Notes under the pieces: generated by a model
What the model saw: only the letters and a program-made list of their open reading frames with translations
What the model was told of the DNA's origin: nothing
Database searches by the model: none
Shown: one piece after another, positions 3,185-62,520 of the stretch
Layout: each line of letters opens with the position of its first letter
How positions within the stretch are numbered: position 1 is the stretch's first letter
DNA from: Octopus vulgaris
Lineage: Eukaryota
Reading direction: 5' to 3'
Assembly (NCBI GenBank): GCA_951406725.2
Contig: OX597818.1
Span: 51,770,001 to 51,834,000 of the forward strand
Length of the DNA stretch: 64,000 nt
Translations under genes and position numbers: made by a program

Positions 3185-3257
3185 TGAAGAATCCGGGTAT
3201 CGATCCCGGTACCTCTCGCATGCAAAGTGAGCGCTCTACCATCTGAGCTAATTCCAC
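3185..3257 (-). pseudogene. tRNA-Ala(TGC) pseudogene
   Basis: Ala body with acceptor-stem (2:71) and anticodon-stem mismatches. Confidence 0.8.
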
Positions 3258-3558
3258 ATCCGCTGCTGCTCACCTTTTCTTAATAGTATATTAATAAACG
3301 TATCAATATTTATTCATAAACGCGTCATGTTGGCAGAATGGTTACCTCACCGGGTAAAATTGCGTCGCAGTATTTCGTCTGTCTTCATCTTCTGAGTTCA
3401 AATGCTACCGCCGTCATTCTTCAGGGGACGATAAATGAAGTACCAGTTGAGCATTAGGGTCCATGTAATCGACCAACCCCTCCCCCCGAAATTGCTGGCC
3501 TTGTATCAAAATTTGAAATGAAACAAAATATTAGAATTCACAAAATACTTCGGTAATG

Positions 3559-3631
3559 TGGAGAATCCGGGTATCGATCCCGGTACCTCTCGCATGCAAA
3601 GCGAGCGCTCTACCATCTGAGCTAATTCCCC
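3559..3631 (-). tRNA. tRNA-Ala(TGC)
   Basis: 73-nt cloverleaf GGGGAATTAGCTCAGATGGTAGAGCGCTCGCTTTGCATGCGAGAGGTACCGGGATCGATACCCGGATTCTCCA with G3:U70 and A73. Confidence 0.92.
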
Positions 3632-3849
3632 ATCTCCTGCTGCTTCTGCTTTTCTTATCTATTAATACTTTATTAAGAAAAGTGTTAATACTTTGTTAAT
3701 AAACGCGGGGAGCTGACGGAACCGTTAGCACTCCGGGCAAAATGCTTTGCGGTCAAGCTCGACTTTGCCTTTCACACTTCCAGGGTCAATAAAATATATG
3801 CTATTTGAGCTCTGGGGTCGGTGCTATCGACATAACCCGCCCTGTGGAG

Positions 3850-4402
3850 GGAGCCAGTCGATTATATCATCCCTAGTACGCAAGTGGTATTTATTTTATC
3901 GACCCTGAAAGGATGAAAGGCAAAGTCGACCTCGGCGGAATTTGAACTCAGAACGTAAAGACAGACGAAATAACTATTTCTTTATTACCCACAAGGGGCT
4001 AAACATAGAGGGGACAAACAAAGGCAGACATAGGTATTAAGTCGATTACATCGACCCCAGTGCGTAACTGGTACTTAATTTATCGACTCCGAAAGGATGA
4101 AAGGCAAAGTCGACCTCGGCGGAATTTGAACTCAGGACGTAAAGACAGACGAAATACCTATTTCTATTTCTTTATTACCCACAAGGGGTTAAACATAGAG
4201 GGGACAAACACAGACAGACATAGGTATTAAGTCGATTACATCGACCCCAGTGCGTAAATGGCACTTAATTTATCGACCCCGAAAGGATGACTGGCAAAGT
4301 CGACCTCGGCGGAATTTGAACTCAGAACCTGTGTCGGTGACAGACGAAATACCGCTAAGCATTTCGCCCGGCGTGCTAAAATTTCTGCCAGCTCTCCGCC
4401 TT
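3850..4402 (-). mobile_element. SINE family B (OR2-like), head-to-tail trimer
   Basis: Three iterations of GAAAGGATGAAAGGCAAAGTCGACCTCGGCGGAATTTGAACTCAG; one full head at the right end; homologous to 6381-6619. Confidence 0.85.
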
Positions 4403-4749
4403 GGAGTGTAACTTATATAATCGTCTCCCTGATGTTTCTCAATGAAGACACATAATGTTGCTAAAAAGACTCAGTTCGAACCGATCCAGTTGTCCCATGA
4501 CAATAGACGTTCCACTCTGGTCAAGCAAACTTTATTCTAATAAATCTAAGCCTAGCTTATCCTATTCAAATAAATCTAAGCCTAGCTTATTCTATTCAAA
4601 GCAAAAAACTTATCCTAGCAAGATATATTTGAGAGTTATTTAGCTTGTCGTCTGCCATATAACAGACGATTCATTGACCAATGAAAATGTATTCCTTAAA
4701 CAGTAACAGGTGTATGTTTGTGTGTAAAAGTATGTATGTAAAAGTATAT

Positions 4750-5166
4750 AGGCGCAGGAGTGGCTGTGTGGTAAGTAGCTTGCTAACCAGCCACATGGTT
4801 CCGGGTTCAGTCCCACTGCGTGGAATCTTGGGCAAGTGCCTTCTGCTATAGCCCCGGGCCGACCAATGCCTTGTGAGTGAATTTGGTAGACGGAAACTGA
4901 AAGAAGCCTGTCGTATATATGTATATATACATATGTATATGTATGTGTGTGTTTGTGTGTCTGTGTTTGTCCCCCTAGTATTGCTTGACAAACGATGCTG
5001 GTGTGTTTACGTCCCCGTCACTTAGCGGTTCGGCAAAAGAGACCGATAGAATAAGAACTGGGCTTACAAAGAATAAGTTCCGGGGTCGATTTGCCCGACT
5101 AAAGGCGGTGTTCCAGCATGGCCACAGTCAAATGACTGAAACAAGTAAAAGAGTAAAGAGTAAGAG
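4750..5166 (+). mobile_element. SINE family C (OR1-like): tRNA head, CORE-like segment, internal (TA/TG)n, AAGAGT tail
   Basis: GGCGCAGGAGTGGCTGTGTGGTAAG...GGTTCAGTCCC...CTTGGGCAAGTG...CAGCATGGCCACAGTCAAATGACTGAAACAAGTAAAAGAG; eight copies in the window. Confidence 0.88.
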
Positions 5167-5548
5167 TATGTGTATCTGCGTTTGTATTTGAATGTGTCTA
5201 TTTCTCTATCAGGAAAGCCTATAAGTCATGTGTCTGTTGTAGAGGGCTGACCTTGATCAAAACAACATTAGTGTTTATAGTATAGTATCAAGTTAATAAT
5301 CATGGTCTCAAATTTAGCACAAGGCCAGCAATTTTGATGGTGGGTTATGTCGATTGCACCGACCCCAGAGCTCAAATAGCATATATTTTATTGACCCCGG
5401 AAAGGTGAAAGGCAAAGTCGACCTCGGCCGCAAAGCATTTTGCCCGGAGTGCTAACGATTCCGTCAGCTCCCCGCGTTTATTAACAAAGTATTAACACTT
5501 TTCTTAATAAAGTATTAATAGATAAGAAAAGCAGAAGCAGCAGGAGAT

Positions 5549-5621
5549 GGGGAATTAGCTCAGATGGTAGAGCGCTCGCTTTGCATGCGAGAGGTACCGG
5601 GATCGATCCCCGGATTCTCCA
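5549..5621 (+). tRNA. tRNA-Ala(TGC)
   Basis: Intact cloverleaf, one T-loop substitution; inverted paralog of 3559-3631. Confidence 0.88.
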
Positions 5622-5900
5622 CATTATCCAAGCATTATGTTAATTCTAATATATTTATTTTAGTTATTATGTTTCAAATTTTGACACAAGGCCAGCAATT
5701 TCGGGGGGAGGGGTAGGTCGATTACATTGACCCTAGTGCTCAATTAGTTCTTCATTTATCGTCCCTTGAAGAATGAAAGGCTAAATCGACCTCGGTAGCA
5801 TTTGAACTCAGAAGATACAGACGAAATACGCGACGCACTTGTTAATAAACCATTGGCACATTTATTAATATAGTACTAAGAAAAGCCGCCAATTGCGGTT

Positions 5901-5974
5901 GGGGAATTAGCTCACATGGTAGAGCGCTCGCTTCGCATGCGAGAGGTACCGGTGATCGATACCCGGATTCTCCA
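5901..5974 (+). tRNA. tRNA-Ala(CGC), possibly a pseudogene
   Basis: CTCGC-TTCGCAT-GCGAG anticodon arm; G15C change and 1-nt insertion in the T stem. Confidence 0.55.
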
Positions 5975-6380
5975 AATTATCTAATAATATTAGCTCTACT
6001 ATATCTGTTTTAGTTATCCTGTTTCGAATTTTGGCCAACAGTTTTGGGGGAGAGGTAAGTCGATTGCGTGGACGCCAGTGCTCAACTGGTACTTCTTTTA
6101 TCGACCCTTGAATAAATCTAAGATTAGGTCATCACGTTTAAAACCAAAATCTTATGCTTCACCAATAAACCTACTTTTGTTTTCAATAATCTATTAATTG
6201 ATTTCATTTTTATTTACTTTGAAAATTCTGAGATTTAAAAACAAAATTTATATTCGGTGCTCCAGCATGACCGCATGAAACAAGTAAAAGATTAAAGAGT
6301 AAAAGTAAACGAATAACAAAACCGATGAGCACAATTCGGTGCATTAGCTCAGATGATAGCGCGCTCAGTTGGCATTCGAG

Positions 6381-6619
6381 AGGCGCCGAGCTGGCAGAAA
6401 CGTTAGCACGCCGGGTGAAATGCTCAGCGGTATTTCGTCTGCCTTTACGTTCTGAGTTCAAATTCTGCCGAGGTCGACTTTGCCTTTCATCCGTTCGGGG
6501 TCGATTAAATAAGTACCAGTTACGCACTGGGATCGATATAATCGACTTAATCCGTTTGTCTGTCCTTGTTTGTCCTCTCTGTGTTTAGCCCCTTGTGGGT
6601 AGTAAAGAAATAGGTATTT
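6381..6619 (+). mobile_element. SINE family B, full length, inserted in a degenerate tRNA-Ala
   Basis: GGCGCCGAGCTGGCAGAA...GAGTTCAAATTC...GCCTTTCATCCGTTCGGGGTCGAT...AAAGAAATAGGTATTT; preceded by a tRNA-Ala-like 5' half at 6338-6380. Confidence 0.88.
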
Positions 6620-7092
6620 GTTCCTAGACGTTGCAATAAAGCTGCTTATGTTAATAATTTCCAGTCTGTTGGATACTCCAATAAATGTACTTTTGTTTTT
6701 AATAGCATGTACTCCAACAAATGTACTTTAATTGTTAAATTCCAGATTTATAAAAAGACTTTACGATATAAATAGGAGAAAGACACGATCACAAACAGGG
6801 ATATTATCTTAAACGTTAGAGCGTACCCTTTGCCTGACAGAGATAGCGGGATCGATGCCCAGATTCTCCAATAAAGTAACTTTTGTTTCTAATATCATGT
6901 CTGTTGCTTTCATTTAGTTTTGAAATTCGGAGATTTTATTAACTTTGATATATATATATATCAGTCAGCGGGGAGTACTAACAGGTGAATTAGCTAAGAT
7001 GGATTCTCCAACCTCCAATAAAGCTATTTTTTGTTTTTAATATCGAAAAGAGCAAACAAAGAAAACTGTAAATAAAAACTCTAGTGTTTTAC

Positions 7093-9010: not shown

Positions 9011-9083
9011 TGGAGAATCCGGGCATCGATCCCGGTACCTCTCGCATGCTAAGCGAGCGCTCTACCATCTGAGCTAATTCCCC
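9011..9083 (-). tRNA. tRNA-Ala(AGC)
   Basis: Intact cloverleaf, anticodon loop TTAGCAT; T-run terminator downstream. Confidence 0.95.
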
Positions 9084-9362
9084 GTATATGCTTTACATCT
9101 TGCCATTTAAATATTTAAATGCATACTGATTACTCTGCTGTTCGCTATGTTTTACCTATTTTTGACCATTACTTGTTTCATTTATCGAACTAGAGCCATG
9201 CTGGCGCAACAGTTAAAACAATTTAGTAGTTATCTTTTAATTCTGGTATTTATTTATTATTTTCTTTTGCCGAACCGCTGGGTTACGGGATCGTATAATA
9301 ATATCAAACTGAATATCATGCTGTGAAGGAGAACAAAATCAAACTCAAGGACCCATACACCC

Positions 9363-9413
<51 letters not shown>

Positions 9414-10313
9414 CACACACACAGACGCGCACGTGAACACACACACACACACACACACAGACGCGCACGTGAACACTCACGCACACGAATATATATACGA
9501 GGAGCTTCCTGACAATTTCCGTTTACCAATACACTGGTCGGCCCGAGGCTATAATATAAGACACCTAATTGCCAGTCTATGGGACTGAATCTGACACCAC
9601 ATGTTATAAAGCTTTTTAACCTTACAGTTACGCTGTACCTGTATGCATGTATAAAATACATGAGAATATATGTACGCATGTATAACAAATGATAGAGACA
9701 GAAAATGGAATACACGAGAAATTTCATTGCTCATAACGATCGTTTCGACACATCCCGCATCCATCTCTCACCGGTGAGATACTGTACAACTAGTTGTGGT
9801 GCATCCCTCGGTACAGAGGTGTCTCGCATCAGGTGATTTTACAAAGGGTTCCTCGTTAAAAGAACTCTATTTTGTTCGGTTTTAATAAAGCTGTTTTTAG
9901 TAACCATAAGCTTAAGCTGTTTGGCAAGAATGGCGAGGGACAGATTCCACTACGATGTTACAGACGATTGTCTACATGTATTTAGTAGTAAATCAAAGAC
10001 AGGGAGTACATAAGAAAAATAAGAAGAATAAAATATACTATAAGGTAAAAAATGATATGCCTGCAATGACTACCTACAAACGAACTCCGAGTTTGTATGA
10101 TTGTGTGTAGAATACATTGATCAATAAAATTCCAACTTAATCTGATATTCACGTCTTATTTGCAATCTTTACAATTTTACAACTTTACAGTATTGAAATA
10201 AATTAGCACATTTATGCGTTACCCAATCTCCAGGTTTTTGTAGTGATAGGTGTGTCCCACAATTGACAGTTGCGTCAAGTATGGAACACGACTCTCACTA
10301 CATAAGCCTGATG

Positions 10314-10353
<40 letters not shown>

Positions 10354-11159
10354 TGTATATTTTCTCGCCCTGTTTCTTTGTGTTTCTTTCTGTGGAAGAG
10401 CGTAGGCTCGAAACGTTAAAGACTTTTTCACTTCCCGAGCGTTAAACTAATACATTTGTTTGTTGACTACACCACCCGTCTTCGTCGTTTGTTTGTTTTT
10501 GTGAATTCTCCCTATATATATATATATATATTATATTAATATATTATACGACTAAACGCACGCACCCTATTAGTAAGATTGTTCTGTTTATCAAGTTCGC
10601 CTTGATATTAACTCTACGCGATATCTTTCTTTCTTTCTCTCCCATTCCCTTTTTCGTCTTTTTTCCTCACTTAACTTGTCTCTTCCTCTCTCTCTCCCCT
10701 CACTGTTCTTATGGTCTCCTCGCACCATTCCTCTTCTCTCTCTTCCTCTTGCTCCTCCTCCCCATTCCCGTCGTCCATCTGCGACGTACTTCCGTCGTAA
10801 CTGCTATCCCGTCCTTTTTCGCCTGCCTCTAAGGCCACTGGTCGACATCTTCCTCTCTCGTCGTCCACTATAATCCAGCGTTTGCAATATTTTTTCGTCT
10901 GGCGTTAACAGCCCTTCTTATCTTGTTCTCTTGTCCTGTCTCTCACTGTTATATATTTATTTATCCACTGTTTATATATATATTTTTTACTGTTTATATG
11001 TTTATACCGTCTTATTTTTATATACAAGATCTCAGAATAATGATCGCGGAAGGAATCACATATACGTCTCGCTTATATTTATACGTATATAGATGAAACT
11101 ATACGACTGAAGAAGGGATTTTTCGTTGTGCTTATATATGTTTTTTATACATGTATGAC

Positions 11160-11437
11160 GTATATATATTTATACATATATATATGTACATGTAGAGGTT
11201 ATACATATATGATATATATATTTATACATATATATATTTATATATATATGATATATATATTTATACATATATATATTTATACATATATGATATATATATT
11301 TATACATATATATATTTATACATATATGATATATATATTTATACATATATATATTTATACATATATGATATATATATATATACATATATATATATATTTA
11401 TACATATATGATATATGTGTATATATATATATATATA
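11160..11437. repeat. AT-rich 39-bp minisatellite derived from (TA)n
   Basis: Repeating ATATATATATTTATACATATATATATTTATACATATATG (13-aa periodic pseudo-ORF). Confidence 0.88.
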
Positions 11438-12128
11438 CAGACATGCAGGAAGTAAATAGACACCTTTAAGTTTTAAAATTTCTGATCTGAGCGTCTTAAT
11501 ATGGTTTCAGCGGTGTAAAATTTACAGTGTAATTATTCTTTTTTATTCCAGGTGCCATTATATTAAACATCTGCGAAGAGTAACCCTGCCACGCACAAAA
11601 AGTTCAGCAGAACTGTCAGATTTTCAAAGATGTTGTATTATTGGGCAATCTGAGGCTGGTCTTAGCCAGCGAAAAATTGCTGAAAATCTTCAAATTCCTC
11701 TTGCTCCTGTTAATAGAATTATAGTGCAATTTAAAAACCAAGGAAAAGAATTAACAGATTCTTGTTCCTGCCGACCTAGGCCCTCGAAAAGAAGCTTCGC
11801 TGTTTGAAGATTTGTGGAAAACGAACCCCGTTCGAAGGCTTCTGACGTTGCAAAACAGCTAGAAGTTAGTCCAAGAAGGTGTGTTACATATCTGCATAAG
11901 GCTGGTTATTATAGACGAGCAGCTAGAAGAAAACACCCACAAGAGACAATCACAAAGCTCATCAGTTCAATGCCAAAAAGAGATTCTGAATTAAAAACTG
12001 CAAAAGGAATGTCAACTAAATACTAAAGTATGTAGTCCTACCTATCGATTACAATTCAAATGTTCGCTTTGCGTATTAAATAAATGGTTTTGAAAATTAA
12101 AGGTGTCTATTTACTTCCTGCATGTCTG
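11438..12128 (+). mobile_element. Tc1/mariner transposon, internally deleted and non-autonomous
   Basis: TIR CAGACATGCAGGAAGTAAATAGACACCTTTAA at both ends; TA on the left, TG on the right; Tc1 transposase remnants inside. Confidence 0.93.
11586..12026 (+). pseudogene. Tc1-like transposase remnant (HTH domain fused to the C-terminus, DDE domain missing)
   Basis: ELSDFQRCCIIGQSEAGLSQRKIAENLQIP paired-like HTH, a frameshift, LHKAGYYRRAARRK, then ITKLISSMPKR...KGMSTKY* (typical Tc1 C-terminus). Confidence 0.88.
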
Positions 12129-12465
12129 TGTACATACATACATGCATGCATACATATATACATACATGCTCCCACATTACGCACACACAAACAGGTCTAC
12201 ATATTATAAATAAACACTACTATTTGTTTATGTGTGTACATGGCACGCGTATGTGTATGTATCGGCTAAAACATTTAAATCTTCTTTTTTAGGGCTCATG
12301 AAATTGCATGTTCAAATATATTAATAAATAACCGAATGTATTCGGTAACAAAAAATTTTTTAACAAAACAGAAGAATGAACTCGAGAATAATACAGTTAT
12401 TTCGAAACTCGTAACAAGTATTATCAATCAATATATTTAAAAAAAACCATTAAAGCGATTTCGTT

Positions 12466-12538
12466 TGGAGAATCCGGGCATCGATCCCGGTACCTCTCGC
12501 ATGCTAAGCGAGCGCTCTACCATCTGAGCTAATTCCCC
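12466..12538 (-). tRNA. tRNA-Ala(AGC)
   Basis: Intact cloverleaf identical to 9011-9083. Confidence 0.95.
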
Positions 12539-12966
12539 TCGATAAGCTTTACAGTTTGGCATTTAAATATTTAAGTGTACCCTGCTCGTTTTCAATATTG
12601 CTGTTGGATACGCTTCACCTATTGTTTTTCCTTTCCCTGTTACACCTATTGAACTGAAGCCATGCTGGAGCAACATCTAAAAGGAATTAGTCGAGCAGAT
12701 CGTCCCCCGGTATTCATCTTTAATTGTGGTATTTATTTATCCTTTTTCCTTTGCCGAACCCCTAGATTACGGGAATATATAATAATCTGAAACTGATTAT
12801 CAAGCGGTGATGGAGAACAAACACAAACTCAAGGACACTGACACACACACACACACACACACACACACAAGCGCGCGCGTGAATATCGAACGATGACTAA
12901 AAGCAAACGGCATAATCAGCCGACGCTTTAATATTCAAATACTAACAGAGAAGTTGGTTCACCGTT

Positions 12967-13039
12967 GGGGAATTAGCTCAGATGGTAGAGCGCTCGCTTA
13001 GCATGCGAGAGGTACCGGGATCGATGCCCGGATTCTCCA
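12967..13039 (+). tRNA. tRNA-Ala(AGC)
   Basis: Intact cloverleaf followed by a long T-run. Confidence 0.95.
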
Positions 13040-13467
13040 ATCAATGTCATTCATTTTTTTTTTTTTTTTTACTTTTGGTTCTTGTGTGCTTCAGTTTTAC
13101 ATATAACAACATTACACACAAGTTCAAAATTTATCTTTTTCTGAATATATTCGGTTTATTGATCACTGCAAATTCATAAAAGCTGAAAGACTTCAAATAC
13201 AGAATGTTTCAGATGACATGTTTCAGTGTCGAGAGACGGCAAAAGCTGAGCATAGACTACGTACCTGTGTGTGTGTGTGTGTACTTGTTCGTATGTATAT
13301 ATGAGTGTTGTATGTGCGTGCGTGTGTTTGTCCACCGTCACCACCACCACTTAATGACCGGTGTTGGTTTATTTACGTCTCACTCAACAAGAGGTTCGGC
13401 AAAGGGAGTATGTAAGTGTTTATTTCGTCACCATAGTAACTGTGTTGTTACTCTATACAATATATAA

Positions 13468-13880
13468 TATTTTATCTGTTAGTAGTTTCAGTCATTTGAT
13501 CGCGGCCATACTGGAGCACCGCCTTGAATGGTTTCAGTCGAACAAATTATCCCTACGACATTATTTTTCAAAGCCTTGCATTTATTCTCTCGGTCCTTTC
13601 TGCCGAAACGCTAAGTTACGGGGACATAAACACACCAACACCAGACGTCAAGCGGTGGTAGGAGACAAAACAGACACAGAAACACACACACATAGATACA
13701 TACGTAGATATATAGGTACATATATACATGTATGTGCGTATGCATACGACGGGCTTCTACTTTCCGTCGACCAAATCCACTCGCCAGGCTTTGATCGGCC
13801 GTGGCTTTGACAGAATACACCTGCCCAATGAGATTTGCAGTGGGACTGAACCCAGAGCCATGTGGTTGGAATGCAAGCCC
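13468..13880 (-). mobile_element. SINE family C (inverted paralog of 7931-8400)
   Basis: Shares private variants and flanks with the 7931 copy. Confidence 0.83.
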
Positions 13881-13986
13881 ATGTAATCGATTTACACCCT
13901 CACTCGAAATTGCTGGCCTTGTATCAAAATTTGAAACATTAGAACTAAAACAAATATATTAGAATTAACAAAATTACTGGATAATG

Positions 13987-14059
13987 TGGAGAATCCGGGT
14001 ATCGATCCCGGTACTTCTCGCATGCAAAGCGAGCGCTCTACCATCTGAGCTAATTCCCC
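13987..14059 (-). tRNA. tRNA-Ala(TGC)
   Basis: Intact stems, variable-loop G>A; flanks paralogous to the 3559 and 5549 copies. Confidence 0.87.
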
Positions 14060-15269
14060 ATTTCTCACTGATCTGGCTTTTCTTATGTATTAATACTTTA
14101 TTAATAAATGTGTTAATTCTTTGTTAATAAACGCGGCGAGCTGACGGAATCGTTAGCACTCCGGGCAAAATACTTAGCGGCCGAGGTGGACATTGCCTTT
14201 CACCCTTCAGGGGTCAATAAAATATTTGCTATTTGAGCTCTGGGGTCGATGCATTCCTGAAGTACCGTGTTTGAAGCTCGGATTTTCTAATAAAGCTATT
14301 TATGTTTATGTTTATTTATCCTCGATTCTATAATTATGTTTATTTTCATGTTGTTGTTCCATTTGTCCCCCCGACCCCTTGTCTGTTCTTGTATCGTCCA
14401 CCTTAATGGACCGGCTAGGACCGATCAGTTTTTGTTATTTACGTAATTAAAGAAATCACAGAATTTCAAGAGGAAATGGAAATGAAATCAAGTGATACAC
14501 AAGATATTAAAAACAAAAGATTTATTGAAGAATCTAAGCATCGATCCTGAAACCTATCGCATGAAAAGCTGGCGCTCTACCTTCTGATATAATTCCCCAG
14601 TTAGCAACCATTAGTTTTTGTTGTGGATATGAAAATTAACCCCGCTACCCACGGAACTTCAAAAGTAAATGAAAAAAAACTCACTCAAGCTATTAAGAAC
14701 TAAATTAACTACACTGGAGAATCCAGATATCGATCCCGGTACATCACGTATGCAAAGCGAGCGCCCAACCACCTGAGCTAATTCCCCGGATAGTAAATAC
14801 ATATGGCACCCGCTTTGCATGTGAGAGGTACCGGGATCGATAACCGGTTTCTCCAATGAAGCTACTTTTGTTCTAAATAACTTGTATATTACTTCATTTC
14901 ATTTACTTTCGAAATTCCGCGTATTCTTTTTAATTTTCATATACACAACAAAAATATGTATTTACTATCCGGGGAATTAGCTCAGGTGGTTGGGCGCTCG
15001 CTTTGCATACGTGATGTACCGGGATCGATATCTGGATTCTCCAGTGTAGTTAATTTAGTTCTTAATAGCTTGAGTGAGTTTTTTTTCATTTACTTGTCTG
15101 TCTTCGTATCGTCCACTTTTTTTCTTTTTTTTACCTTTATGTTTAATAAAGAAAAGAGATTTTAAATTCCAGGATTTAAAAAAAAATTTCATGTACATAT
15201 CCCCTGGTTTGCAATTATAGGTTTTTGTCATGTACATGAAATTTTTTTTTAAATCCTGGAATTTAAAAT

Positions 15270-15660
15270 CTCTTTTCTTTATTAAACATAAAGGTAAAAA
15301 AAAGAAAAAAAGTGGACGATACGAAGACAGACAAGGGGTCGGGGGACAAATGGAACAACAGCATGAAGATAAACATAATTATAGAATCGTGGATAAATAA
15401 GTATAAAATTCGGATGAAAAACAAAAAGGAATGAAAAAAGCAATTATGAAGTGAGGCACGTGGCCGACCCCACAAACCACATTCCAACACTGAATCCTTT
15501 GGTAGACTCTTTAATTTCTCGCCCAAACAAGTTAATTTACTCTCAACACTCCTGCTACAGTCGTCCATCTTTTCAGAAATATTCCATGCGACAGGTATCT
15601 CCTATCCATCCTTATTTTCCTTTTCATATGGAAAAGGAAAAAGTTCACCAACCCAAGGCT
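15270..15660 (-). mobile_element. L1/Tx1-like LINE 3' end (end of ORF2 plus 3' UTR)
   Basis: Minus strand reads GLVNFFLFHMKRKIRMDRRYLSHGIFLKRW, matching the GLVNF end of the 51.5-52.1 kb fragment; then a UTR with AATAAA. The UTR also occurs at 14312-14402 (+). Confidence 0.7.
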
Positions 15661-16163: not shown

Positions 16164-16236
16164 TGGAGAATCCGGGTATCGATCCCGGTACCTCTCGCAT
16201 GCTAAGCGAGCGCTCTACCATCTGAGCTAATTCCCC
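16164..16236 (-). tRNA. tRNA-Ala(AGC)
   Basis: Intact cloverleaf. Confidence 0.93.
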
Positions 16237-52172: not shown

Positions 52173-52807
<635 letters not shown>

Positions 52808-53539
52808 ATGTATATGAAAATTTTTTTAAAAAATGCGGAATTTCAAAAGTAAATGCAAATGAAGCCAAGACTATTTATTAAAATCAAAATTAGCTTCATT
52901 GGACAATCCGGACATCCTTTCTGGCACCTTTCGCTTTCCAAGAGAGTGTTCTACCACCTGAGATATTTCCAGTTTACTGACCATCGGCATTTGTCATGTA
53001 TATGAAAATTTAAAACAAAACCCGGAATTTCAAAAGTAAAGGAAATTAAGTAACAGGTAACTTATTAAAAATAAAAAGCGGATCAATTGGAGAATTCGGT
53101 ATTGATCACAATACCACACGTATGCAAATCGTGCGCGATACCAACTGAATTAATTCCTCGGTTAGTCCAGAAAAGTGTTTGTTATATATATAATAATTTT
53201 TTAAAAATCGTGAAATTTGAAATGTAAATGAAAATGAAATCAAGTTTTTAATATCTTATATATTTTTTGATATCTTATATATCTTTGAATGCAAAGCGAA
53301 AATATATAAGATATTAAAATCTTTATATATATCTTTATATATATATATATATCTTATATTTGTCCTGGGAATCGATCCCAGTACATCTTGCATGCAAAGC
53401 GAAAATTCTATCTGAATCAATTCCCCGGTTAGGGATCAAAGATTTTTGTTATGAACATGAAAATTTCACAAAACACGTAATTTCAAATGCAAATGATATC
53501 AAGTAATAGGCGAGATCTCAAAAACAAAATTTAGATTAT

Positions 53540-53612
53540 TGGAGAATCCGGGTATCGATCCCGGTACCTCTCGCATGCAAAGCGAGCGCTCTACCATCTG
53601 AGCTAATTCCCC
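53540..53612 (-). tRNA. tRNA-Ala(TGC)
   Basis: Intact cloverleaf. Confidence 0.93.
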
Positions 53613-54318
53613 AATTAAGTAGGAGAAGAGTTTGTTGTGTATATAATAATTTTAAAAAAATCACTTAGTTTCAAATGTAAATGAAAATGAAGTCGAATAA
53701 TAAACAGGATATCAAAACCAAAACTAATTTCACGGGAGAATCCAGGAATCGATTCCGGTGCCTCTCGCAGTCAAAGCGGGCAATCTACCATCTGAGCCAA
53801 TTCCCTGTTCAGTGGACGCAACTTTTTGTCATATATATGAAAAAAAATCGGAATTGCAAAAGTAAAGGAAATCAAGTGATAGACAAGATATCAAAGACAA
53901 TATATTTGTCTATTTGTTGTGTATATAATAATATAATAAAAACAATCGCGGAATTTGAAATGTAAATGAGATCAAGTAATAGGCAAGATATCGAATACAA
54001 AAGTAGCTTTATTGGAGAATCAGGGAATCGATCCCAGTAGCTTTCGCATGCAAAGCGATTGTCTAGCATTTGTCGTGTATTCAAAATATTCAAAATATGG
54101 TAAAAAGCAAAAACTCGAATTTCAAAAGTAAATAAAAAAGTAGTTTTATTGGAGAATCTGAGAATCGATCCAAGGACATCTCGCATGCAAAGCGAAAATT
54201 CCACGGTTAGGGATCAAACGTTTTTGTTATGAACATGAAAATTTCACAAAACACGTAATTTCAAATGCATATGATATCACGTAATAGGCGAGATATCAAA
54301 AGCAAAAATTTACATCAT

Positions 54319-54391
54319 TGGAGAATCCGGGTATCGATCCCGGTACCTCTCGCATGCAAAGCGAGCGCTCTACCAACTGAGCTAATTCCCC
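54319..54391 (-). tRNA. tRNA-Ala(TGC), D-loop AGTTGG
   Basis: Intact cloverleaf. Confidence 0.93.
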
Positions 54392-55427
54392 AGTAATCTT
54401 TCAAGAATGTTTGTTGTGTATATAATACTTTTTTTTTAAATCGCTTAATTTGAAATCTAAATGAAAATGAAGTCAAGTAATAAAGAAGATATCAAAACCA
54501 AAAGTTGTTTCATTGGAGAATCCAAGCATACATTCGGTACTTCTCGCAGTTAAAGCGAGCAATCTACCATCTGATTCCCCATTAAGTGGACACTTTCTTC
54601 ATTCATACGAAAAATTGAAAAAAAAAAAAAGGAAAGAAATCCGGAATCGCGAAAGTAAATGGAAAGGAAATCAAGTGATAGACAAGATATCAAAGACAAA
54701 AGTAGTTTTATTGGAGAATCCGGAGATCGATCCCAGCACTTCTCGAATGCAAAACGCGCGTTCTATTCTTGTTATGTATATGAAAATTTTCTAGAAATCC
54801 GGAATTTCAAATGAGATGAAGTAATAGACGATCTATCAAAAACATAATTGGCATTATTGGAGAATTCAGGCATAGATTCCTGTCACACCTCGCATGCAAA
54901 GCGAGCGCTTTACCCTCTGAGCCAATTCCGCGGTTAGTGACCAGCGTTTTTTAGTTGTTTTTATGTATTTGGAAATTTGAAAAATCCCGGAATTTCAAAA
55001 GAAAAAGAAAATGAAATGAAGTTTTAGACAACTTACTCAAAAAAAAAAAAAAAAGATCCACTAGAGAATCCAGACACCGATTCTGGTACCTTTCGCAGTC
55101 AAAGCAAGCATTCTACTACCTGAGCCAAAACTCCGTCTAGTGCTTAAAATTAAAAAATTAAGAAAAAATCGGAATTGCAAAGTAAATGAAAAAGAAATAA
55201 AGTGATAGACAAGATATTAAAAACAAAAGTAGCTTTATTGGAGATTCCGAGAATCGATCCCAGTACCTTTCGCATGCTGAGTTAATTCCCTGGACAGGGA
55301 TTAAACGTTTTTTGTTATGTATGTGAACATTTTACAAACCCTGATTTTCAAATGAAAATGAAATCGAACATTTTCCCACCTGAGCAAATTCCCCGGTTAG
55401 TGACCATAGGTTTCTTTTATTATGTGT

Positions 55428-55484
<57 letters not shown>

Positions 55485-56605
55485 AATCCCTGAATTTCAA
55501 ACGTAAATGAATTTGAAATCAAGTAATAGACTAGTTATAAAAAACAAAGTAACACTATTGGAGAATCCAGGCATCGATCCCGGTACCTCTCGAATGCAAA
55601 TCAAATAGTCTATGTTATGACCTAATTCTCTAGTGCATAAACATAAGTTTCTGTTATGTATATGAAATGTGAAAAAAAAAACTCTCAGGTGTTTCAAATG
55701 TAAATGAAATTAAGCAATAGACTAGATATTAAAAAAGGGAGTGGCTCCACAAGAAAACTTTAAAAAAAACTCGCCTAATTTCAAAAGTAAATGAAAATGA
55801 ATTCAAGCAACAGACAAGTTATTAAAAGCAAAATTAGCTTCACTGGTTAATCCAGACGTCCTTTCTGGAACATTTCACATATAAAAAGAGCATTCCACCA
55901 TCTGAGCTAATTCACCGGTTAGTAACGATAGGCTTTTCTTACGTATATATATATTAAAAAAAAAACCGGATTTCCAATAGTAAATAAAAATGAAACCACG
56001 TAATACACAAGATATCAAAACGAAAAGTAGTTTCATTAGAGAATCCGGGCATTGATTGCGGTACTTGTCGCAGTCAAAGCGAGCAATCTACCATCTGAGC
56101 CCGCAACCATTTGTCATGTGTATGAAAATATAGAATAAAACCGGAATTGCTAAAGTAAATGAAAGTGATAGACAAGATATTACAAACAGAAGTAGCTTTA
56201 TTGGAGAATCTGTGAATCGACCCCAGGACATCTTGCATGCAAAGCGAGCATTCTATCTGAGTTAATTGCCCGGTTAGGGATAAAACGCTGTTTTTATGAA
56301 TACGAAAATTTCACAAAACAGTGCACGCTACCATTTGTCGTGTATTCAAAATATAGAAAAAAAATCTCGAATTGCAGAAATGAAAGTGATAGGCAAGATA
56401 TTAAAACCAGAAGTAGCTTTATTGGAGAATCTGGGAATCGATCCCAGGATATCTTGCATGCAAGGCGAGTAGTCTATCTGAGTTAATTGCCCGGTTAGGG
56501 ATCAAACGTTTTGTTATAAACATGAAAATTTCACAAAACACGTAATTTCAAATGCAAATGATATCAAGTAATAGACGAGATATCAAAAACAAAAAACTAC
56601 TTTAT

Positions 56606-56678
56606 TGGAGAATTCGGGTATCGATCCCGATACCTCTCGCATGCAAAGCGAGCGCTCTACCAACTGAGCTAATTCCCC
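56606..56678 (-). tRNA. tRNA-Ala(TGC), D-loop AGTTGG
   Basis: Intact, compensatory U49-A65 pair. Confidence 0.92.
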
Positions 56679-58985
56679 AGTTGCTGTGCTAGAGTGTTCG
56701 TTGTGTATATAATAATTTTTCTAAAACATTTGCTGAATTTAAAATGTAAATAAAAATGAAGTCAAGTAATAAAGATATCAAAACCAAAAGTTGTTTCATT
56801 GGAAAATCCAGACATCGACCCCGATACCTCACGCAGTCAAAGCGAGCAATCTATCATCTGAGCCAATTCCCTGCTCAGTGGACGCAACCTTTTCTCATGT
56901 ATTCGAAAATTTGAAAAAAAAAAAAAAAACAGAATTGCAAAAGTAAATGAAAAGGAAATCAAGTGATAGACAAGATATCAAAAACAAAAGTAGTTTTAGT
57001 GGAGAATCCGGGGATCGATCCCAGTATCCCTCGAATGCAAAACGAACGTTCTACTATATGAGTTGATATTCCAGTTAGGGATCAAACCTTTTTGTTATGT
57101 ATCTGAAAATTTTCTAAAAATCCGGAATTTCAAATGAGATGAAGTAATAGACGATCTATCAAAAACATAATTAGCATTATTGGAGAATTCGGGCATCGAT
57201 TCCTGGCACATCTCGCATGCAAAGCGAGGCCTGTACCCTCTGAGCCAATTCCATGGTGAGTGACCAGCGTTTTTTTGTTGTTTTTATGTATTTGAAAATT
57301 TGAAACAATTGGAATTTCAAAAGGAAATGAAAATGAAATGAAGTTTTAGACAATTTATAAAAAAAAAATTCTAAAAAAACGTCTTCACTGTAGAATCTGG
57401 GTATCGATTTTGGCATCTGGTGAATCCGGGTATTGATCCGGCATCTCAGGCATGCAAAGCGAGCGTTCTACCATCTGAGTAAATTCTCCGGGAGAGGGAG
57501 CAATAGTTTTTTGTTGTGTATTTGAAAATTTTACAAAGCAGGAATTGCAAATAAAATCGGGCACTCTCCCACCTGAGCTAATTCCCCAGTTAGTGACCAT
57601 AGGTTTCTTTTATTATGTATATGAAAATTTAAAAATCCTCGAATTTCAAACTTAAATGAATTTGAAATCAAGTAATATACTAGATATTAAAAATAAAGTA
57701 GCATTATTGGAGAATCCGGGCATCGATCCCGGTACCTCCCGTATGCAAAGCGAGAACCGAACATCTGAGTTAATTCCCTAGTTAGCGAACTTTCATGTAA
57801 AAATTTAAGAAAAAAATCCTTGAATTTCAGAGGTAAAGGAAAATAAAATTAAGTATTACATAACTTATTCGAAGGAAAGCAGCTTCATTAAAGAATCCGG
57901 GCATCGAGCCCGGGACCCCTTGCATGCAAAGTGAGCGCTTTAACTTATGCGTTAATTACCCTGACAGCGGCGATTCGTGTTTGTTATTGTATATGATCAT
58001 TTTAAAAATATCGCGGAGTTTCAAAAGTAAATGAAAATGAATTCAAGCAACAGACAAGTTATTAAAAACAAAATTAGGTTCAGTGGTAAACCCAGACGTC
58101 CTTTCTGGTACATTTCACATACGAACAGTGCCTCGTACCAATTGAGCTAAGGCTTTTCTTATGCATATGTAAATTGAAAAAAAAACAAAAAAGAAACAAA
58201 ACAAAAAAAAAACCCGGTGTTTCAATAGTAAAATGTCGTAAATAAAAGTAGCTTTATTGAAGAATCCGGGAATCGATCCCAGTAGCTTTGCATGCTGTGT
58301 TAATTGCCTGGACAGGGATTAAACGTTTTTTGTTATGCATGTGAACATTTAACAAACCTTGGTTCAAATGAAACTGAAATCGAACACTCTCCCGCCTGAG
58401 CAAATTCCCCGGGAGTAAGCATATGTTTCTTTTGATATGCATATGAAAATTTAAAAACCCTAAAATTCAAACATAAATGAATACAAAAGGGTCCTCCTAC
58501 CAATTGAGCTATGGCTTTTCTTATGTATATGTAAAAAAAAAACAAAAAAAAAATCGGAATTCCAATAATAAATGAAAATGAAATCACGCAATACACAAGA
58601 TATCAAAACGAAAAGTAGTTTCATTAGAGAATCCGATCATTGATTGCGGTACCTGTTCCAGTCAAAGCGAGCAATCTACCATGTGAGTCATTTAGGTCCA
58701 GTGCCCGCAACCATTTGTCATGTGTATGAAAATAGAGAATAAAACCGGAATTGCAAAAGTAAATGAAAGTGAGAGACAAGATATTACAAACAGAAGTAGC
58801 TTTATTGGAGAATCTGGGAATCGATCGCAGGACATCTTTCATGAAAAGCGAGCATTCTATTTGAGTTAATTGCCCGGTTAGGGATCAAACGCTTTTGTTA
58901 TGAATACGAAAATTTCACAAAACACGTAATTTCAAATGCAAATGATATGAATAGACGAGATATCAAAAACAAAAATTTTCGATAT

Positions 58986-59058
58986 TGGAGAATCCGGGTA
59001 TCGATCCCGGTACCTCTCGCATGCAAAGCGAGCGCTCTACCAACTGAGCTAATTCCCC
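58986..59058 (-). tRNA. tRNA-Ala(TGC), D-loop AGTTGG
   Basis: Intact cloverleaf. Confidence 0.93.
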
Positions 59059-60335
59059 CGTTAATTCAGAAAGTGTTTGTTGTGTATATGATATTTTTGT
59101 TTTTAAAATCGCTGAATTTGAAATATAAATAAAAATGAAGTCAAGTAATAAAGAAGATATCAAAACCAAAAGTAGTTTCATTGGAGAATCCAAGCATGGA
59201 TTCCGGTACCTCTCACAGTGAAAGCGAGCAATCTACCATCTGAGCCTATTCCCCGCTCAGTGAACGCAACCTTTTGTCATGTATACGAAAATTCGAAGAA
59301 AAAAAAAAGAAAACGGAATTGCAAAAGTAAATGAAAAGGAAATCAAGTGATAGACAAGATATCAAAAACAAAAGTAGTTTTAGTGGAGAATCCGAGGATC
59401 GATCCCAGTACCTCTCGAATGCAAAACGAACGTTCTACTATATGAGTTGATATTCCAGTTAGGGATCAAATGTTTTTGTTCTGTATCTGAAAATTTTCTA
59501 AAAATTCGGAATTTCAAATGAGATCAAGTAATAGACGTGCTATCAAAAACATAATTGGCATTATTGGAGAACTCGGGCATCGATTCCTGGCACATCTCGC
59601 ATGCAAAGCGAAGCCTGTACCCTCTGAGCCAATTCCATGGTGAGTGACCAGCGTTTTTTTGTTGTTTTTATGTATTTGAAAATTTGAAACAATTGGAATT
59701 TCAAAAGGAAATGAAAATGAAATGAAGTTTTAGACAATTTATAAAAAACAAACAAAAAATAAACGTCTTCACTGGAGAATCTGGGTATCGATTCCGGCAT
59801 CTGGTGAATCCGGGTATCGATCCGGCATCTCAGGCATGCAAAGCGAGCGTTCTTCCATCTGAGTACATCCCCGAGAGAGAGGGAGCAATAGTTCTTTGTT
59901 GTGTATTTGAAAATTTTACGAAGCCGGAATTGCAAATTAAATCGGGCACTCTCCCGCCTGAGTTAATTCCCCAGTTAGTCACCATAGGTTTCTTTTATTA
60001 TGTATATGAAAATACATAATAGACTAGTTATTAAAAATAAAGTAGCTTATTTGGTGAATCCGGGCATCGATCCCGGTACCTCCCGTATGCAAAGCGAGTA
60101 ATCTACATTATGATCTAATTCCTTAGTGCGTAAACGTAGATTTCTGTTATGTATATGAAAATGTTTGAAAAAAACCATGGAGTTTCAAATGCTTGCATGC
60201 AAAGTGAGCATTCTATCTGAGTAAATTCCCGGCGAGGGGTCAAACGTTGATTTTATGAATATGAAAATTTCACAAAACACGTAATTTCAAATGCAAAGTA
60301 ATAGGCGAGATATCAAAAACAAAAAGTTAGATTAT

Positions 60336-60408
60336 TGGAGAATCCGGGTATCGATCCCGGTACCTCTCGCATGCAAAGCGAGCGCTCTACCATCTGAGCT
60401 AATTCCCC
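60336..60408 (-). tRNA. tRNA-Ala(TGC)
   Basis: Intact cloverleaf. Confidence 0.93.
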
Positions 60409-60840
60409 AGTTGATATGCTAGAGTGTTCGTTGTGTATATAATAATTTTTAAAAAATCGCTGAATTTGAAATGTAAATGAAAAGGGAGGCAAGTAATAAA
60501 CAGGATTTCAAAACCAAAGGTAGTTTCAATGGACAATTCAGGCATCGATTCCGGTACCTCTCGCAGTCAAAGAGAGCATTCTACTATCTGAGCCAATTCC
60601 CCGCTCAGTGGACGCAACCTTTTGTCATGTATGCGAAAATTTGAGAAGAACCGGAATTGCAGAAGTAATTGAAAAGGAAATCAAGTGACAAACAAGATAT
60701 TAAAAACAAAAGTAGCGATATTGGAGAATCTGGGAATCGATCCCAGGACATCTTGCATGCAAAGCGAGCAGTCTACCTGAGTTAATTCCCCGGTTAGGGA
60801 TCAAACGCTTTTGTTATGAATACGAAAATTTCACAAAACG

Positions 60841-61104
60841 CTGTTTCCCGATTACAATACCGTATAGGTTCCCCACCTGAACGGGACGCCGGTCTATCAA
60901 AGGTGAGCTGCAAGATGCAGGAGGAAAGAGTGAGAGAAAGTTGCGGCGAAAGAGTCAGCAGAAGTTCGCCATTACCTTCTGCGAGAGCCGCGTGGAGCTT
61001 AGGTGCTTCGCTCATAAACAAACACACATCGCCCGATCTGAGATTCGAACCCGCGAGCCCTGGTCCGCGAGTCCGCTGCTCTAACCACTGGGCCATGTGC
61101 CCCC
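60841..61104 (-). mobile_element. SINE family A with a full tRNA-derived head
   Basis: Minus strand GGGGCACATGGCCCAGTGG (A box)...GGTTCGAATCTC (B box); central domain shared with the 2764 copy. Confidence 0.82.
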
Positions 61105-61139
61105 ACTTTACATTTTAATCTGTTGTTCAAATAATTGCT

Positions 61140-61432
61140 ACTGTTGTTGCTGTGCTGCTGTGCTGTGCTGTTGAGCGAACGGTCTTCGTCCCAGGGCTCG
61201 CAAGATGGGAGAAGTCCGAAACGTGGTCCTTTGCTATTCGTAAGAGCCGCATAAGAGAAAGCAGGTCGACCCCCGACACCGAGAGCATTGACGGATGGAT
61301 GAATGCGCATCCAGGCTCAGCGGTTGCGTAGGAAGTCGGGGACAAGAAACAGGAAGAAAGAGTGAGAGAAAGTTGTGGCGAAAGAGTACAACAGGGGTCG
61401 CCACTACTCCCTGCCGGAGCTTCGTGGAGCTT
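61140..61432 (-). mobile_element. SINE family A variant, 5'-truncated, different 3' tail ending in (CAGCA/CAA)n
   Basis: Shares GAAAGAGTGAGAGAAAGTTG...CCGGAGCTTCGTGGAGCTT with the other family A copies. Confidence 0.75.
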
Positions 61433-61740
61433 TGTTGTTGCTGTTGATGTTTTTGTTGTTATTATCTTTGTTGTCACCTCGCAGCGAAGGGACCTGTGAT
61501 CGTAAATATGACAATCGCTTCTTAAACTCTCATCTTTCCATCTCTATCCATCCTCGACACTTCTCATACCCTCTCGGTTGCATTCACTCATTTTCCCCTC
61601 TGTACTCATATAAAACAATACACATCAAAATTTATTTACGATAAAACAGTAAAAATAAAGTGAAAAGCAACTAGTTTAAAATCCCTGAGCGAGAAATATG
61701 GGTATTTTTTGGTTATCTCATCCCCATTAAAAAATATTAC

Positions 61741-62165
61741 GGATCTTTTCGGTTTGAACGGCAGATTTTTCTAGCGGTGTCATATGAAATTGTCACCCAT
61801 AATTATGACCCTAGTATCGATCTATTGCATTTCAATCTGTTTTAGGGTTAGGGTTAGTTAGGGCTAGGGGTGAGGGAAGGGTATCTTTTTTCTTCAGAAA
61901 TGTAAATAAACCCAATCTGTTTCTTAAACGAGGGACATCTTCATACGGCACAGAATGTTTTCACCCAATAGACGTCATTGATTTGGTTGAAATTGCAGAA
62001 ATTGAAGAAAAACAACAACAAATATCTTACAAACTATAGAATTTTCTCAATAAAGCCAAGAGAAAAAGATGTTTTATAAACACATTCTACCAGTATACGA
62101 AGTTTAAAAGTGTTTAGTTACGTGGAAATTATTTTTAAAAACTGCCGTTCAAACCGAAAAGATCC
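61741..62165 (-). mobile_element. MITE, same family
   Basis: Both TIRs and a TTAGGG tract at about 61841-61870. Confidence 0.92.
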
Positions 62166-62447
62166 AAATTGCCATTAAAAAATTGGGTTATCTCCCCATT
62201 TAAAAACTGTTGCGACAAGAGATTGGATGAAAAGAGTTAGACCTTTTTGATTCAATACTTCAACACATCGATGACGTTTGGCCTTCTCACTAGGCATGGT
62301 TTGATTTGCTGTAAAAATGTTATGAGATTCAGTAAGATCTCTTTTACTCTTTTACTTGTTTCAGTCATTTGACTGGTAAACTTCATTAAAAAGATGGTCT
62401 TTTAAGAAATATGTTATATACATAATGAAACACAGACGCATTGACGT

Positions 62448-62520
62448 GGGGAATTAGCTCAAGTGGTAGAGCGCTCGCTTAGCATGCGAGAGGTACCAGG
62501 ATCGATGCCCGGATTCTCCA
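62448..62520 (+). tRNA. tRNA-Ala(AGC)
   Basis: Cloverleaf with D-loop AAGTGG and one A-C mismatch in the T stem. Confidence 0.78.

What the first reader, a model, noticed from the sequence alone, without database searches (positions are those of the whole stretch)
3185..62520. One tRNA-Ala body caught at every stage of birth-and-death across ~60 kb
Seen: every tRNA in the window is the same Ala body. It occurs as dispersed inverted duplicates, a fresh monomer array, and older 1.4-kb and 2.4-kb higher-order repeats in which only 1-2 subunits per repeat stay intact. Units from 14.4 to 60.8 kb share a homologous spacer. Inference: repeated cycles of tandem amplification, decay and re-amplification, with selection preserving a few copies.
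Basis: partly seen in the sequence, partly recalled or inferred. Interest (0 to 1): 0.7.

Follow-up and report, generated by a model that had tools for sequence, protein, structure and literature searches.

The report
Repeatedly re-amplified alanine tRNA gene array
About 60 kb of a likely animal genome is built from roughly 170 copies of one alanine-tRNA gene unit, most of them broken, and the few intact copies carry extra mutations right beside the gene that likely mark them as still transcribed, while one 7-kb block is likely a sequencing or assembly error rather than a stage of decay.

Summary
Observation largely confirmed. All tRNAs here are one tRNA-Ala body (78 ARAGORN calls; 239 profile hits, 0 in 3 shuffles). 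From 14.4 to 60.8 kb they sit in a ~190-bp unit with a homologous spacer, as an old decayed array, 1.4-kb and irregular 2.3-2.4-kb repeats, and a fresh 183-bp array. They are not SINEs. Three corrections. (1) Decay is bimodal, not 'every stage': 31 intact, 7 intermediate, 67 decayed of 105. This fits one old burst plus local re-amplification. (2) The block at 30.75-38.0 kb is deletion-riddled, mosaic and folds back on the fresh array; it is probably an artefact (no read test obtained). (3) The fresh array is barely purged (20 of 43 damaged). New here: in the 2.4-kb repeats, intact copies differ by 2% in the body but 40% in the 20 nt upstream, against 14% and 8% for decayed siblings. That is the published signature of transcription-associated mutagenesis plus purifying selection, read within one genome. 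It is absent in the 1.4-kb repeats. A TGC ancestor likely yielded the AGC and CGC copies by wobble-base changes. The scan's notes held nothing similar on eukaryote DNA.

The parts
3150..6017 (.). Inverted duplicate of a two-gene block (3185/3559 minus; 5549/5901 plus); intact Ala bodies, TGC x3 and CGC x1, with their own flanks
6338..7002 (+). Small decayed cluster; the unit at 6798 carries the array-type spacer, so that spacer extends left of 14.4 kb
9011..14059 (.). Dispersed intact genes 9011-, 12466-, 12967+ (AGC, G60) and 13987- (TGC, paralogue of 3559/5549)
14400..22900 (.). Old ~190-bp unit array in short blocks of both orientations; mostly decayed; intact copies at 16164, 17334, 17587, 18016, 19960, 21966
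22789..30746 (+). Fresh array, 43.6 x 183 bp (73-bp Ala-TGC body plus 110-bp spacer with a T-run 10 nt downstream); 20 of 43 bodies have a stem break or deletion (G53A x11, loss of G51 x5, G1T x4)
30750..38030 (-). Deletion-riddled inverted arm of about 54 units, mostly fresh-type, with a ~600-bp mosaic patch resembling 56.3-57.1 kb; likely a sequencing or assembly artefact
38039..47900 (.). 1.4-kb higher-order repeats (about 8 subunits, 2 intact), 89-91% alike, mostly minus strand, cut by an element with terminal inverted repeats; intact TGC, AGC and CGC copies
47900..51450 (.). Further old array blocks (plus 48.3-50.2 kb with intact AGC at 49335; minus 50.2-51.4 kb, all decayed)
52800..60850 (-). 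Irregular 2.3-2.4-kb repeats, 80-87% alike; one intact Ala-TGC per repeat (53540, 54319, 56606, 58986, 60336) with hypervariable leader and trailer
   Evidence: sequence present in independent DNA runs
62448..62520 (+). Dispersed Ala-AGC body, 5 differences, own flanks
39379..39788 (.). MITE-like element with 31-nt terminal inverted repeats; further copies at 41934, 43161-43655, 47914, 61725. This copy has the left flank of the 47914 copy and the right flank of the 43655 copy
48571..48833 (+). SINE-like insertion with a perfect 16-bp target-site duplication inside a decayed tRNA body (positive control for the TSD test)

Best explanation
This is a cluster of nuclear tRNA-Ala genes built from one ~190-bp unit (gene plus spacer) that likely expanded in one old burst, mostly died, and was later re-copied in blocks and once as a single unit, while about 30 copies were likely kept intact by selection because they are likely still transcribed. 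Shown: one body, a homologous spacer, nested repeats, bimodal decay, and bodies that stay almost unchanged while the 17-20 nt before and 10 nt after them diverge faster than in sibling units. Inferred: unequal crossing-over or slippage as the copying mechanism; RNA polymerase III transcription as the cause of the flank mutations (transcription-associated mutagenesis); point changes at the wobble base turning a TGC ancestor into AGC and CGC copies; a mostly neutral, satellite-like fresh array; and recombination between MITE copies at some block ends. The block at 30.75-38.0 kb is likely a mis-called or mis-polished inverted arm, not a stage of decay.
For: Unit and spacing: spacer homology in 108 of 119 old-array units; 73 of 109 same-strand neighbours lie 150-215 bp apart.

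Selection: paralogous intact bodies differ 2% (8/438 in the 1.4-kb repeats, 14/730 in the 2.4-kb repeats) against 7% and 14% for decayed siblings. Minimum changes over the same 4 repeats are 3/73 vs 22/73, P=1.6e-4. 25 of 37 changes in intact bodies fall at positions 16, 34 and 60, and 4 of 37 break a stem. Anticodon bases 35/36 are changed in 0 of 31 intact vs 26 of 70 decayed bodies.

Flank hypermutation: in the 2.4-kb repeats the inner 5' flank differs 78/197 (40%) vs 25/300 (8%), and the inner 3' flank 36% vs 19%. Matched-repeat tests give P=0.006, 0.0007 and 2e-5 (the sets overlap). Across 10 intact vs 34 decayed lineages, identity to the majority leader is 0.49 vs 0.60 (P=0.011; shuffled 0.44), with no difference in the outer flanks (P=0.81, 0.91). 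This matches the 4-fold and 3-fold excess in the same windows in PMC6130373 (passages).

Burst: 35 decayed lineages differ by a mean of 14.5 of 72 bases, variance 13.2 vs binomial 11.6.

Ancestor: 67 of 70 decayed bodies keep T34.
Against: - No flank excess in the 1.4-kb repeats (11% vs 9%; P=0.47).
- The distance-threshold version of the test was marginal (P=0.037 and 0.048 at 15%) and uninformative at 20%, where clusters merged.
- The strongest signal rests on one lineage of five copies, and pairwise counts are not independent.
- The T-run terminator does not separate intact from decayed copies (28 of 31 vs 57 of 70).
- The -35 to -18 region is not better kept in intact lineages.
- Position 60 is A in 25 of 31 intact bodies but G in 18 and A in 8 of 35 decayed lineages, which conversion among live copies would also explain.
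- The fresh array has fewer distinct variants in the body than in the spacer (8/73 vs 23/80, P=0.018), so it is not wholly unconstrained, or polishing has smoothed it.
- The full-length filter drops the most decayed copies and could narrow the burst peak.
- No expression data.
Confidence: 0.75

Rival explanations
1. Intact bodies stay alike mainly through gene conversion from tRNA-Ala genes here or elsewhere, not because each copy is under selection.
For: Intact bodies sit on several separate spacer lineages, yet 25 of 31 share A60, where decayed lineages are mostly G. T16 occurs in three unrelated lineages. Intergenic conversion of tRNA genes is documented (PMC4981973, passages). The intact copies of the 1.4-kb repeats lack the flank signature.
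Against: Conversion alone does not make the adjoining 17 nt diverge faster than neutral sequence. Changes in intact bodies cluster at tolerant positions. It can act together with the best explanation.
Confidence: 0.15
2. The block at 30.75-38.0 kb is real DNA: a late, deletion-driven stage of decay of an inverted copy of the fresh array.
For: It is in the assembly; some substitutions recur among its units (121T in 12 of 30, 127A in 13 of 36); the mirror-order test against the fresh array is weak (P=0.04); no read-level test was obtained.
Against: Deletion events per substitution are 1.35 vs 0.08-0.21 in nine other blocks, and deletions per insertion 7.5 vs 0.5-1.25 in eight old blocks. Deletions are not inherited: units share 5% on average, with no periodicity. 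A 4-unit patch copies 56.3-57.1 kb mixed with fresh-type letters. The block folds back on the fresh array and is a little shorter than it (7.3 vs 8.0-8.7 kb), as described for nanopore reads over inverted duplicates (PMC7229812, passages).
Confidence: 0.2
3. The units are a tRNA-derived SINE family inserted one by one or amplified as a SINE satellite.
For: A tRNA head with a shared AT-rich downstream sequence; tRNA-derived loci are very numerous in a squid genome and were put down to SINEs (PMC6962438, passages).
Against: An 8-nt target-site duplication was found at 1 of 95 units (null 2.0), and none at 10 or 12 nt; an A8 run lies downstream in 8 of 95. A true insertion in the window shows a 16-bp duplication. 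The head is a complete cloverleaf with G3:U70, and a T-run follows within 25 nt in most units. Dispersed copies lack the shared downstream sequence (1 of 10).
Confidence: 0.04
4. The fresh array and the AGC/CGC switches were favoured by selection for tRNA-Ala dosage or for the full isoacceptor set.
For: Position 34 is changed in 13 of 31 intact vs 3 of 70 decayed bodies, in several separate lineages. The fresh bodies have fewer distinct variants than their spacers.
Against: 26 of 30 changes in fresh bodies are damaging, vs 4 of 37 in older intact ones. Positions 16 and 60 also vary among intact copies, so a raised mutation rate at tolerant sites is enough. The Arabidopsis array was judged to drift neutrally (PMC2886086, abstract and section 17).
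Confidence: 0.15

Closest known systems
Arabidopsis chromosome 1 tRNA Ser-Tyr-Tyr array, 27 triplets (PMC2886086; abstract and section 17 read)
   Same: Tandem tRNA genes with a multi-gene repeat unit and homologous spacers; unequal crossing-over model; functional and non-functional copies mixed; copy number thought to drift
   Different: Here one gene type, most subunits about 20% decayed, several nested repeat scales and inversions, and a second-round monomer array grown from the old one
Transcription-associated mutagenesis at tRNA genes (PMC6130373 and PMC6961574; passages read)
   Same: Conserved body with fast-changing 20-nt 5' and 10-nt 3' flanks in active genes
   Different: Those studies used orthologues and population variants, and PMC6961574 excluded segmental duplicates; here paralogous repeats in one genome give matched live and dead controls
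Turnover and isoacceptor remolding of nuclear tRNA genes in primates and flies (PMC4981973, PMC7919458; passages read)
   Same: Tandem duplication, pseudogenisation, anticodon changes that keep the amino acid
   Different: All three Ala anticodons occur on one body within one array, at paralogous positions
Human 1q23.3 tRNA variable tandem repeat, 7.3-kb unit (PMC4041453; search listing only)
   Same: Copy-number-variable tandem tRNA array in an animal
   Different: Large multi-tRNA GC-rich unit there; 183-190-bp single-gene unit with heavy decay here
Nanopore failure over inverted duplicates (PMC7229812; passages read)
   Same: Missed bases that begin at a fold-back junction and run a little shorter than the preceding arm
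   Different: The sequencing platform of this window is unknown, and the mosaic patch points to mis-polishing as well

Membership tests
Eukaryotic cytosolic tRNA-Ala gene | Cloverleaf and covariance-model match | tested here: met
   Rfam RF00005, 50-64 bits for most intact copies; cloverleaf is the minimum-energy fold in 4 of 4 intact references and not in the 1 decayed one
Eukaryotic cytosolic tRNA-Ala gene | G3:U70 identity pair and NGC anticodon | tested here: met
   Pair 3:70 is G:T in the body; anticodons TGC, AGC, CGC in 31 of 31 intact copies. That G3:U70 is the Ala identity element is recalled.
Eukaryotic cytosolic tRNA-Ala gene | Pol III terminator (4 or more T) shortly downstream | tested here: met
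   28 of 31 intact copies within 25 nt, but also 57 of 70 decayed ones
Eukaryotic cytosolic tRNA-Ala gene | Transcribed and processed from these loci | not testable with these tools
   Only the indirect flank signature
Tandem tRNA gene array (Arabidopsis type) | Head-to-tail units with homologous spacers | tested here: met
Tandem tRNA gene array (Arabidopsis type) | Concerted evolution within species, copy number differing between sister species | not testable with these tools
   No whole genome or relative assembly is held
Birth-and-death gene family | Long-kept copies beside pseudogenes, kept by purifying selection | tested here: met
Birth-and-death gene family | Continuous turnover, giving copies at all ages | tested here: not met
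   Bimodal: 31, 7 and 67 of 105; near-binomial variance among 35 decayed lineages
tRNA-derived SINE | Target-site duplications | tested here: not met
   1 of 95 at 8 nt vs null 2.0; positive control found
tRNA-derived SINE | 3' A-rich or simple-repeat tail | tested here: not met
   A8 within 110 nt downstream in 8 of 95 units; other tail types were not searched
tRNA-derived SINE | Dispersed solo copies across the genome | not testable with these tools
Nanopore inverted-duplicate artefact (block 30.75-38.0 kb) | Missed bases starting at a fold-back junction, arm slightly shorter than the preceding arm | tested here: met
Nanopore inverted-duplicate artefact (block 30.75-38.0 kb) | Mirror order of variants between the arms | tested here: inconclusive
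   Score 16.5 vs null 11.3 +/- 2.3, P=0.04; reversed order 13.6
Nanopore inverted-duplicate artefact (block 30.75-38.0 kb) | Low read quality and no support in accurate reads | not tested
   No read-level result was obtained

The most novel reading that the evidence does not exclude
A single tRNA-Ala(TGC) unit works as a self-renewing gene nursery: one old satellite-like burst seeded dozens of copies, the transcribed survivors mutated their wobble base again and again to supply all three alanine anticodons, and one survivor seeded a new array. The nested repeats record, in one genome, which copies have been transcribed in the germline and at what mutational cost. Many of the very large tRNA counts in cephalopod-like genomes, put down to SINEs, would then be such arrays.
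Probability: 0.3. Interest if true: 0.62.

Novelty: new variant of a known kind. Interest (0 to 1): 0.42.

Why it matters
Each process (tandem tRNA arrays, pseudogenisation, anticodon remolding, flank mutagenesis) is known. What this locus adds is matched controls: live and dead subunits copied in the same duplication, so selection on the body and mutagenesis in the flank can be measured without an outgroup or expression data, in the kind of duplicated region that an earlier activity classifier left out (PMC6961574). It also warns that tRNA gene counts in such assemblies mix unpurged fresh copies and probable assembly errors with working genes.

Tried and rejected
- Whole genome: none is held, so there is no synteny, genome-wide copy count or solo-copy search.
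- Read-level check of 30.75-38.0 kb: no result obtained; the artefact reading rests on internal evidence.
- RNA: no RNA holder listed; this is not evidence on expression. Rows with small shares (0.13 and below) were not used.
- Metagenome scan with a 48-nt spacer pattern: 0 matches.
- Scan notes: nothing at this place. Eight word matches, all described as bacterial or phage repeats or giving no sign of a eukaryote source, were not used.
- Conserved upstream promoter element: suggested, rejected (0.82 vs 0.79, P=0.81). Dispersed copies resemble it in 3 of 10 cases at P<0.05.
- Terminator as a marker of live copies: no discrimination.
- CpG decay as the driver: CpG C>T 0.16 vs other C>T 0.13.
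- Noisy block as an exact mirror of the fresh array: inconclusive.
- Deep branches of the spacer tree are poorly supported and were not used to order events; 8 intact/decayed changes vs 24 in shuffles mostly reflects kinship.
- Protein-coding content: 49 frames of 100 aa or more were listed; 2 were scanned and gave transposon-like fragments below curated cut-offs.
- Literature: no paper on a cephalopod tRNA array of this kind came up. The library lacks most subscription papers, and no supplements were read.
Full report
Observation. ARAGORN tRNA genes, 77 Ala and one 'Ile'; the latter is the same body with 7 changes. Rfam finds 84 tRNA matches and nothing else. A profile grown from the body at 22944-23016 gives 239 hits, against 0 in each of 3 shuffled windows. 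For unit-level work I kept 172 of the 239, dropping the 42 in 30.75-38.0 kb and the weak, 3'-truncated or overlapping hits. Of these, 43 are in the fresh array; 105 of the other 129 are full length and were used for flank tests. The body folds as a cloverleaf and has a G:T pair at 3:70. Microsatellites, a short CCCTAA run and SINE- and LINE-like fragments point to an animal. That the SINE resembles octopus SINEs is recalled and not checked. The stretch 52.8-61 kb is held at 0.49-0.71 of its words by 7 DNA or unlabelled runs from 4 studies under three organism codes; one of these may be the source of the assembly.

Architecture. From 3.1 to 14.1 kb lie dispersed intact genes in inverted and direct duplicates. 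From 14.4 to 60.8 kb the unit is body plus spacer. The spacer beats all 60 shuffles in 29 of 32, 44 of 50 and 35 of 37 old units, against 1 of 10 dispersed ones, and 73 of 109 same-strand neighbours lie 150-215 bp apart. The fresh array (22789-30746, 43.6 x 183 bp) begins in the 3' end of the decayed unit at 22759. The amplified unit therefore likely joins that unit's downstream spacer to the intact body at 22944. The 1.4-kb repeats are 89-91% alike with two intact of about eight subunits. The 2.3-2.4-kb repeats are irregular, 80-87% alike, with one intact copy each. A MITE-like element with 31-nt inverted ends sits at several block ends; the copy at 39379 has the left flank of the copy at 47914 and the right flank of the one ending at 43655, which suggests recombination between copies (inferred).

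Not a SINE. Target-site duplications were found at 1 of 95 units at 8 nt (null 2.0) and at none at 10-12 nt; A8 runs lie downstream in 8 of 95. A real insertion inside a decayed body shows a perfect 16-bp duplication.

Not every stage. Among 105 bodies, 31 have 0-3 differences, 7 have 5-8 and 67 have 10-22. Collapsed to 35 lineages, decayed bodies differ by 14.5 of 72 bases with variance 13.2 against a binomial 11.6, about 0.24 substitutions per site. This fits one old burst better than steady turnover, with the caveat that the full-length filter removes the most decayed copies. The majority of decayed bodies equals today's intact body except at position 60.

Selection. In colinear repeats, intact pairs differ 2% in the body; decayed pairs differ 7% (1.4 kb), 14% (2.4 kb) and 19% (older pairs). 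Over the same four repeats the minimum changes are 3/73 vs 22/73 (P=1.6e-4); in the 1.4-kb repeats 2/73 vs 28/288 (P=0.07). 'Intact' is defined by the number of changes, so their kind is the independent test: 25 of 37 fall at positions 16, 34 and 60, 4 break a stem, and bases 35/36 change in 0 of 31 vs 26 of 70. Counting distinct variants only, damage is 4 of 17 vs 112 of 233 in decayed bodies (P=0.08), so that contrast is weak. The fresh array differs: 20 of 43 bodies are damaged, G53A alone in 11, although its bodies hold fewer distinct variants than its spacers (P=0.018). Some single-base losses in G runs may be sequencing errors.

Flank hypermutation. PMC6130373 (passages) reports that active tRNA genes have about 4-fold and 3-fold more divergence in the 20 nt upstream and 10 nt downstream. 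In the 2.4-kb repeats, intact pairs differ 78/197 (40%) upstream and 36/100 downstream, decayed siblings 25/300 (8%) and 29/150. Tests on matched repeats give P=0.006, 0.0007 and 2e-5 for the -17 to -1 window; the sets overlap, and the 3' flank is significant in 1 of 3. The -17 boundary was chosen after seeing the profile; the 20-nt window was fixed beforehand. Across 10 intact and 34 decayed lineages, identity to the majority sequence is 0.49 vs 0.60 upstream and 0.56 vs 0.68 downstream (P=0.011, 0.012), with no difference further out. Against this, the 1.4-kb repeats show no excess (11% vs 9%), and the threshold-based version was marginal. I infer that most older intact lineages have been transcribed; those in the 1.4-kb repeats may be weakly active or too young to show it.

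Anticodons. 67 of 70 decayed bodies keep T34, so the array ancestor was likely TGC. AGC and CGC occur at positions paralogous to TGC copies: 41672 vs 45247/46629, 40608 vs 19960, 5901 vs 3185. Several independent wobble changes are inferred. Isoacceptor remolding is known (PMC4981973, PMC7919458; passages). A60 in 25 of 31 intact bodies, against G in 18 of 35 decayed lineages, leaves room for conversion among live copies.

The suspect block. 30750-38030 runs opposite to the fresh array from a fold-back junction. It has 797 deletion events for 592 substitutions (1.35, against 0.08-0.21 elsewhere) and 7.5 deletions per insertion. Its 54 units share 5% of their deletions on average, with no periodicity. 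49 of 54 units match the fresh unit best or within 5 points; a patch at 33.9-34.5 kb follows 56.3-57.1 kb subunit by subunit, with fresh-type letters mixed in. Its length (7.3 kb) is slightly under that of the plus arm (8.0-8.7 kb), as described for nanopore reads over inverted duplicates (PMC7229812, passages). The mirror-order test is weak (P=0.04), and no read-level test was obtained. I put the chance of a calling or polishing artefact at about 0.8. If so, the join between the left and right halves of the window is uncertain, though they share paralogous subunits (19.9-21.0 vs 40.6-41.6 kb, 78%).

Comparison and verdict. The nearest described system is the Arabidopsis Ser-Tyr-Tyr array (PMC2886086; abstract and section 17). 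A squid genome paper reports about 17,000 tRNA-derived loci and suggests many are SINEs (PMC6962438, passages). PMC13010820 (passages) supports frequent anticodon variation but gave nothing on such arrays. My searches found no description of a decayed single-gene tRNA array with nested repeats in a cephalopod; the library is incomplete and no supplements were read. This is a new variant of a known kind: real, well structured, mechanistically familiar, and useful as a matched live/dead test of tRNA selection and mutagenesis. Interest 0.42.

Noticed in passing
window 3-2745: 13-bp satellite, about 210 copies, 75% matches, strongly A- and C-skewed; runs off the window start.
   Followed up: no
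window 39379-39788, 41934-42316, 43161-43655, 47914-48352, 61725-62166: MITE-like family with 31-nt terminal inverted repeats, clustered at block ends of the 1.4-kb repeats; one copy looks recombinant between two insertion sites.
   Followed up: partly
window 3856-4401, 6381-6617, 48587-48822: SINE-like family, partly in tandem at 3856-4328, twice inserted into decayed tRNA-Ala bodies; resemblance to octopus SINEs is recalled, not tested.
   Followed up: partly
window 4740-5160, 7931-8400, 13462-13878, 16642-17045, 18685-19120, 21070-21548, 52176-52810, 62540-62977: A second interspersed family of about 400 bp with an internal AC/AT microsatellite, at least 8 copies, 66-90% alike.
   Followed up: no
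window 14715-15043 and 15093-15335: Two identical decayed bodies in opposite orientation (14715-, 14971+), a sign of a recent short inversion-duplication, next to a 243-bp near-perfect palindrome (90.7%).
   Followed up: no
window 11460-11807 and 51545-51958: Open frames with weak matches to a Tc1/Sleeping Beauty-type HTH (E 7e-4) and to zf-RVT of a LINE-like element (E 2e-5); both below curated cut-offs.
   Followed up: partly
window 48205-48250: Short interstitial CCCTAA run inside a MITE-like copy.
   Followed up: no
window 22944-23016, body position 54: All 31 intact copies outside the fresh array, and the array's majority unit, have A at T-loop position 54 whatever the anticodon; recalled as usual for some eukaryotic Ala tRNAs, not checked.
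   Followed up: no
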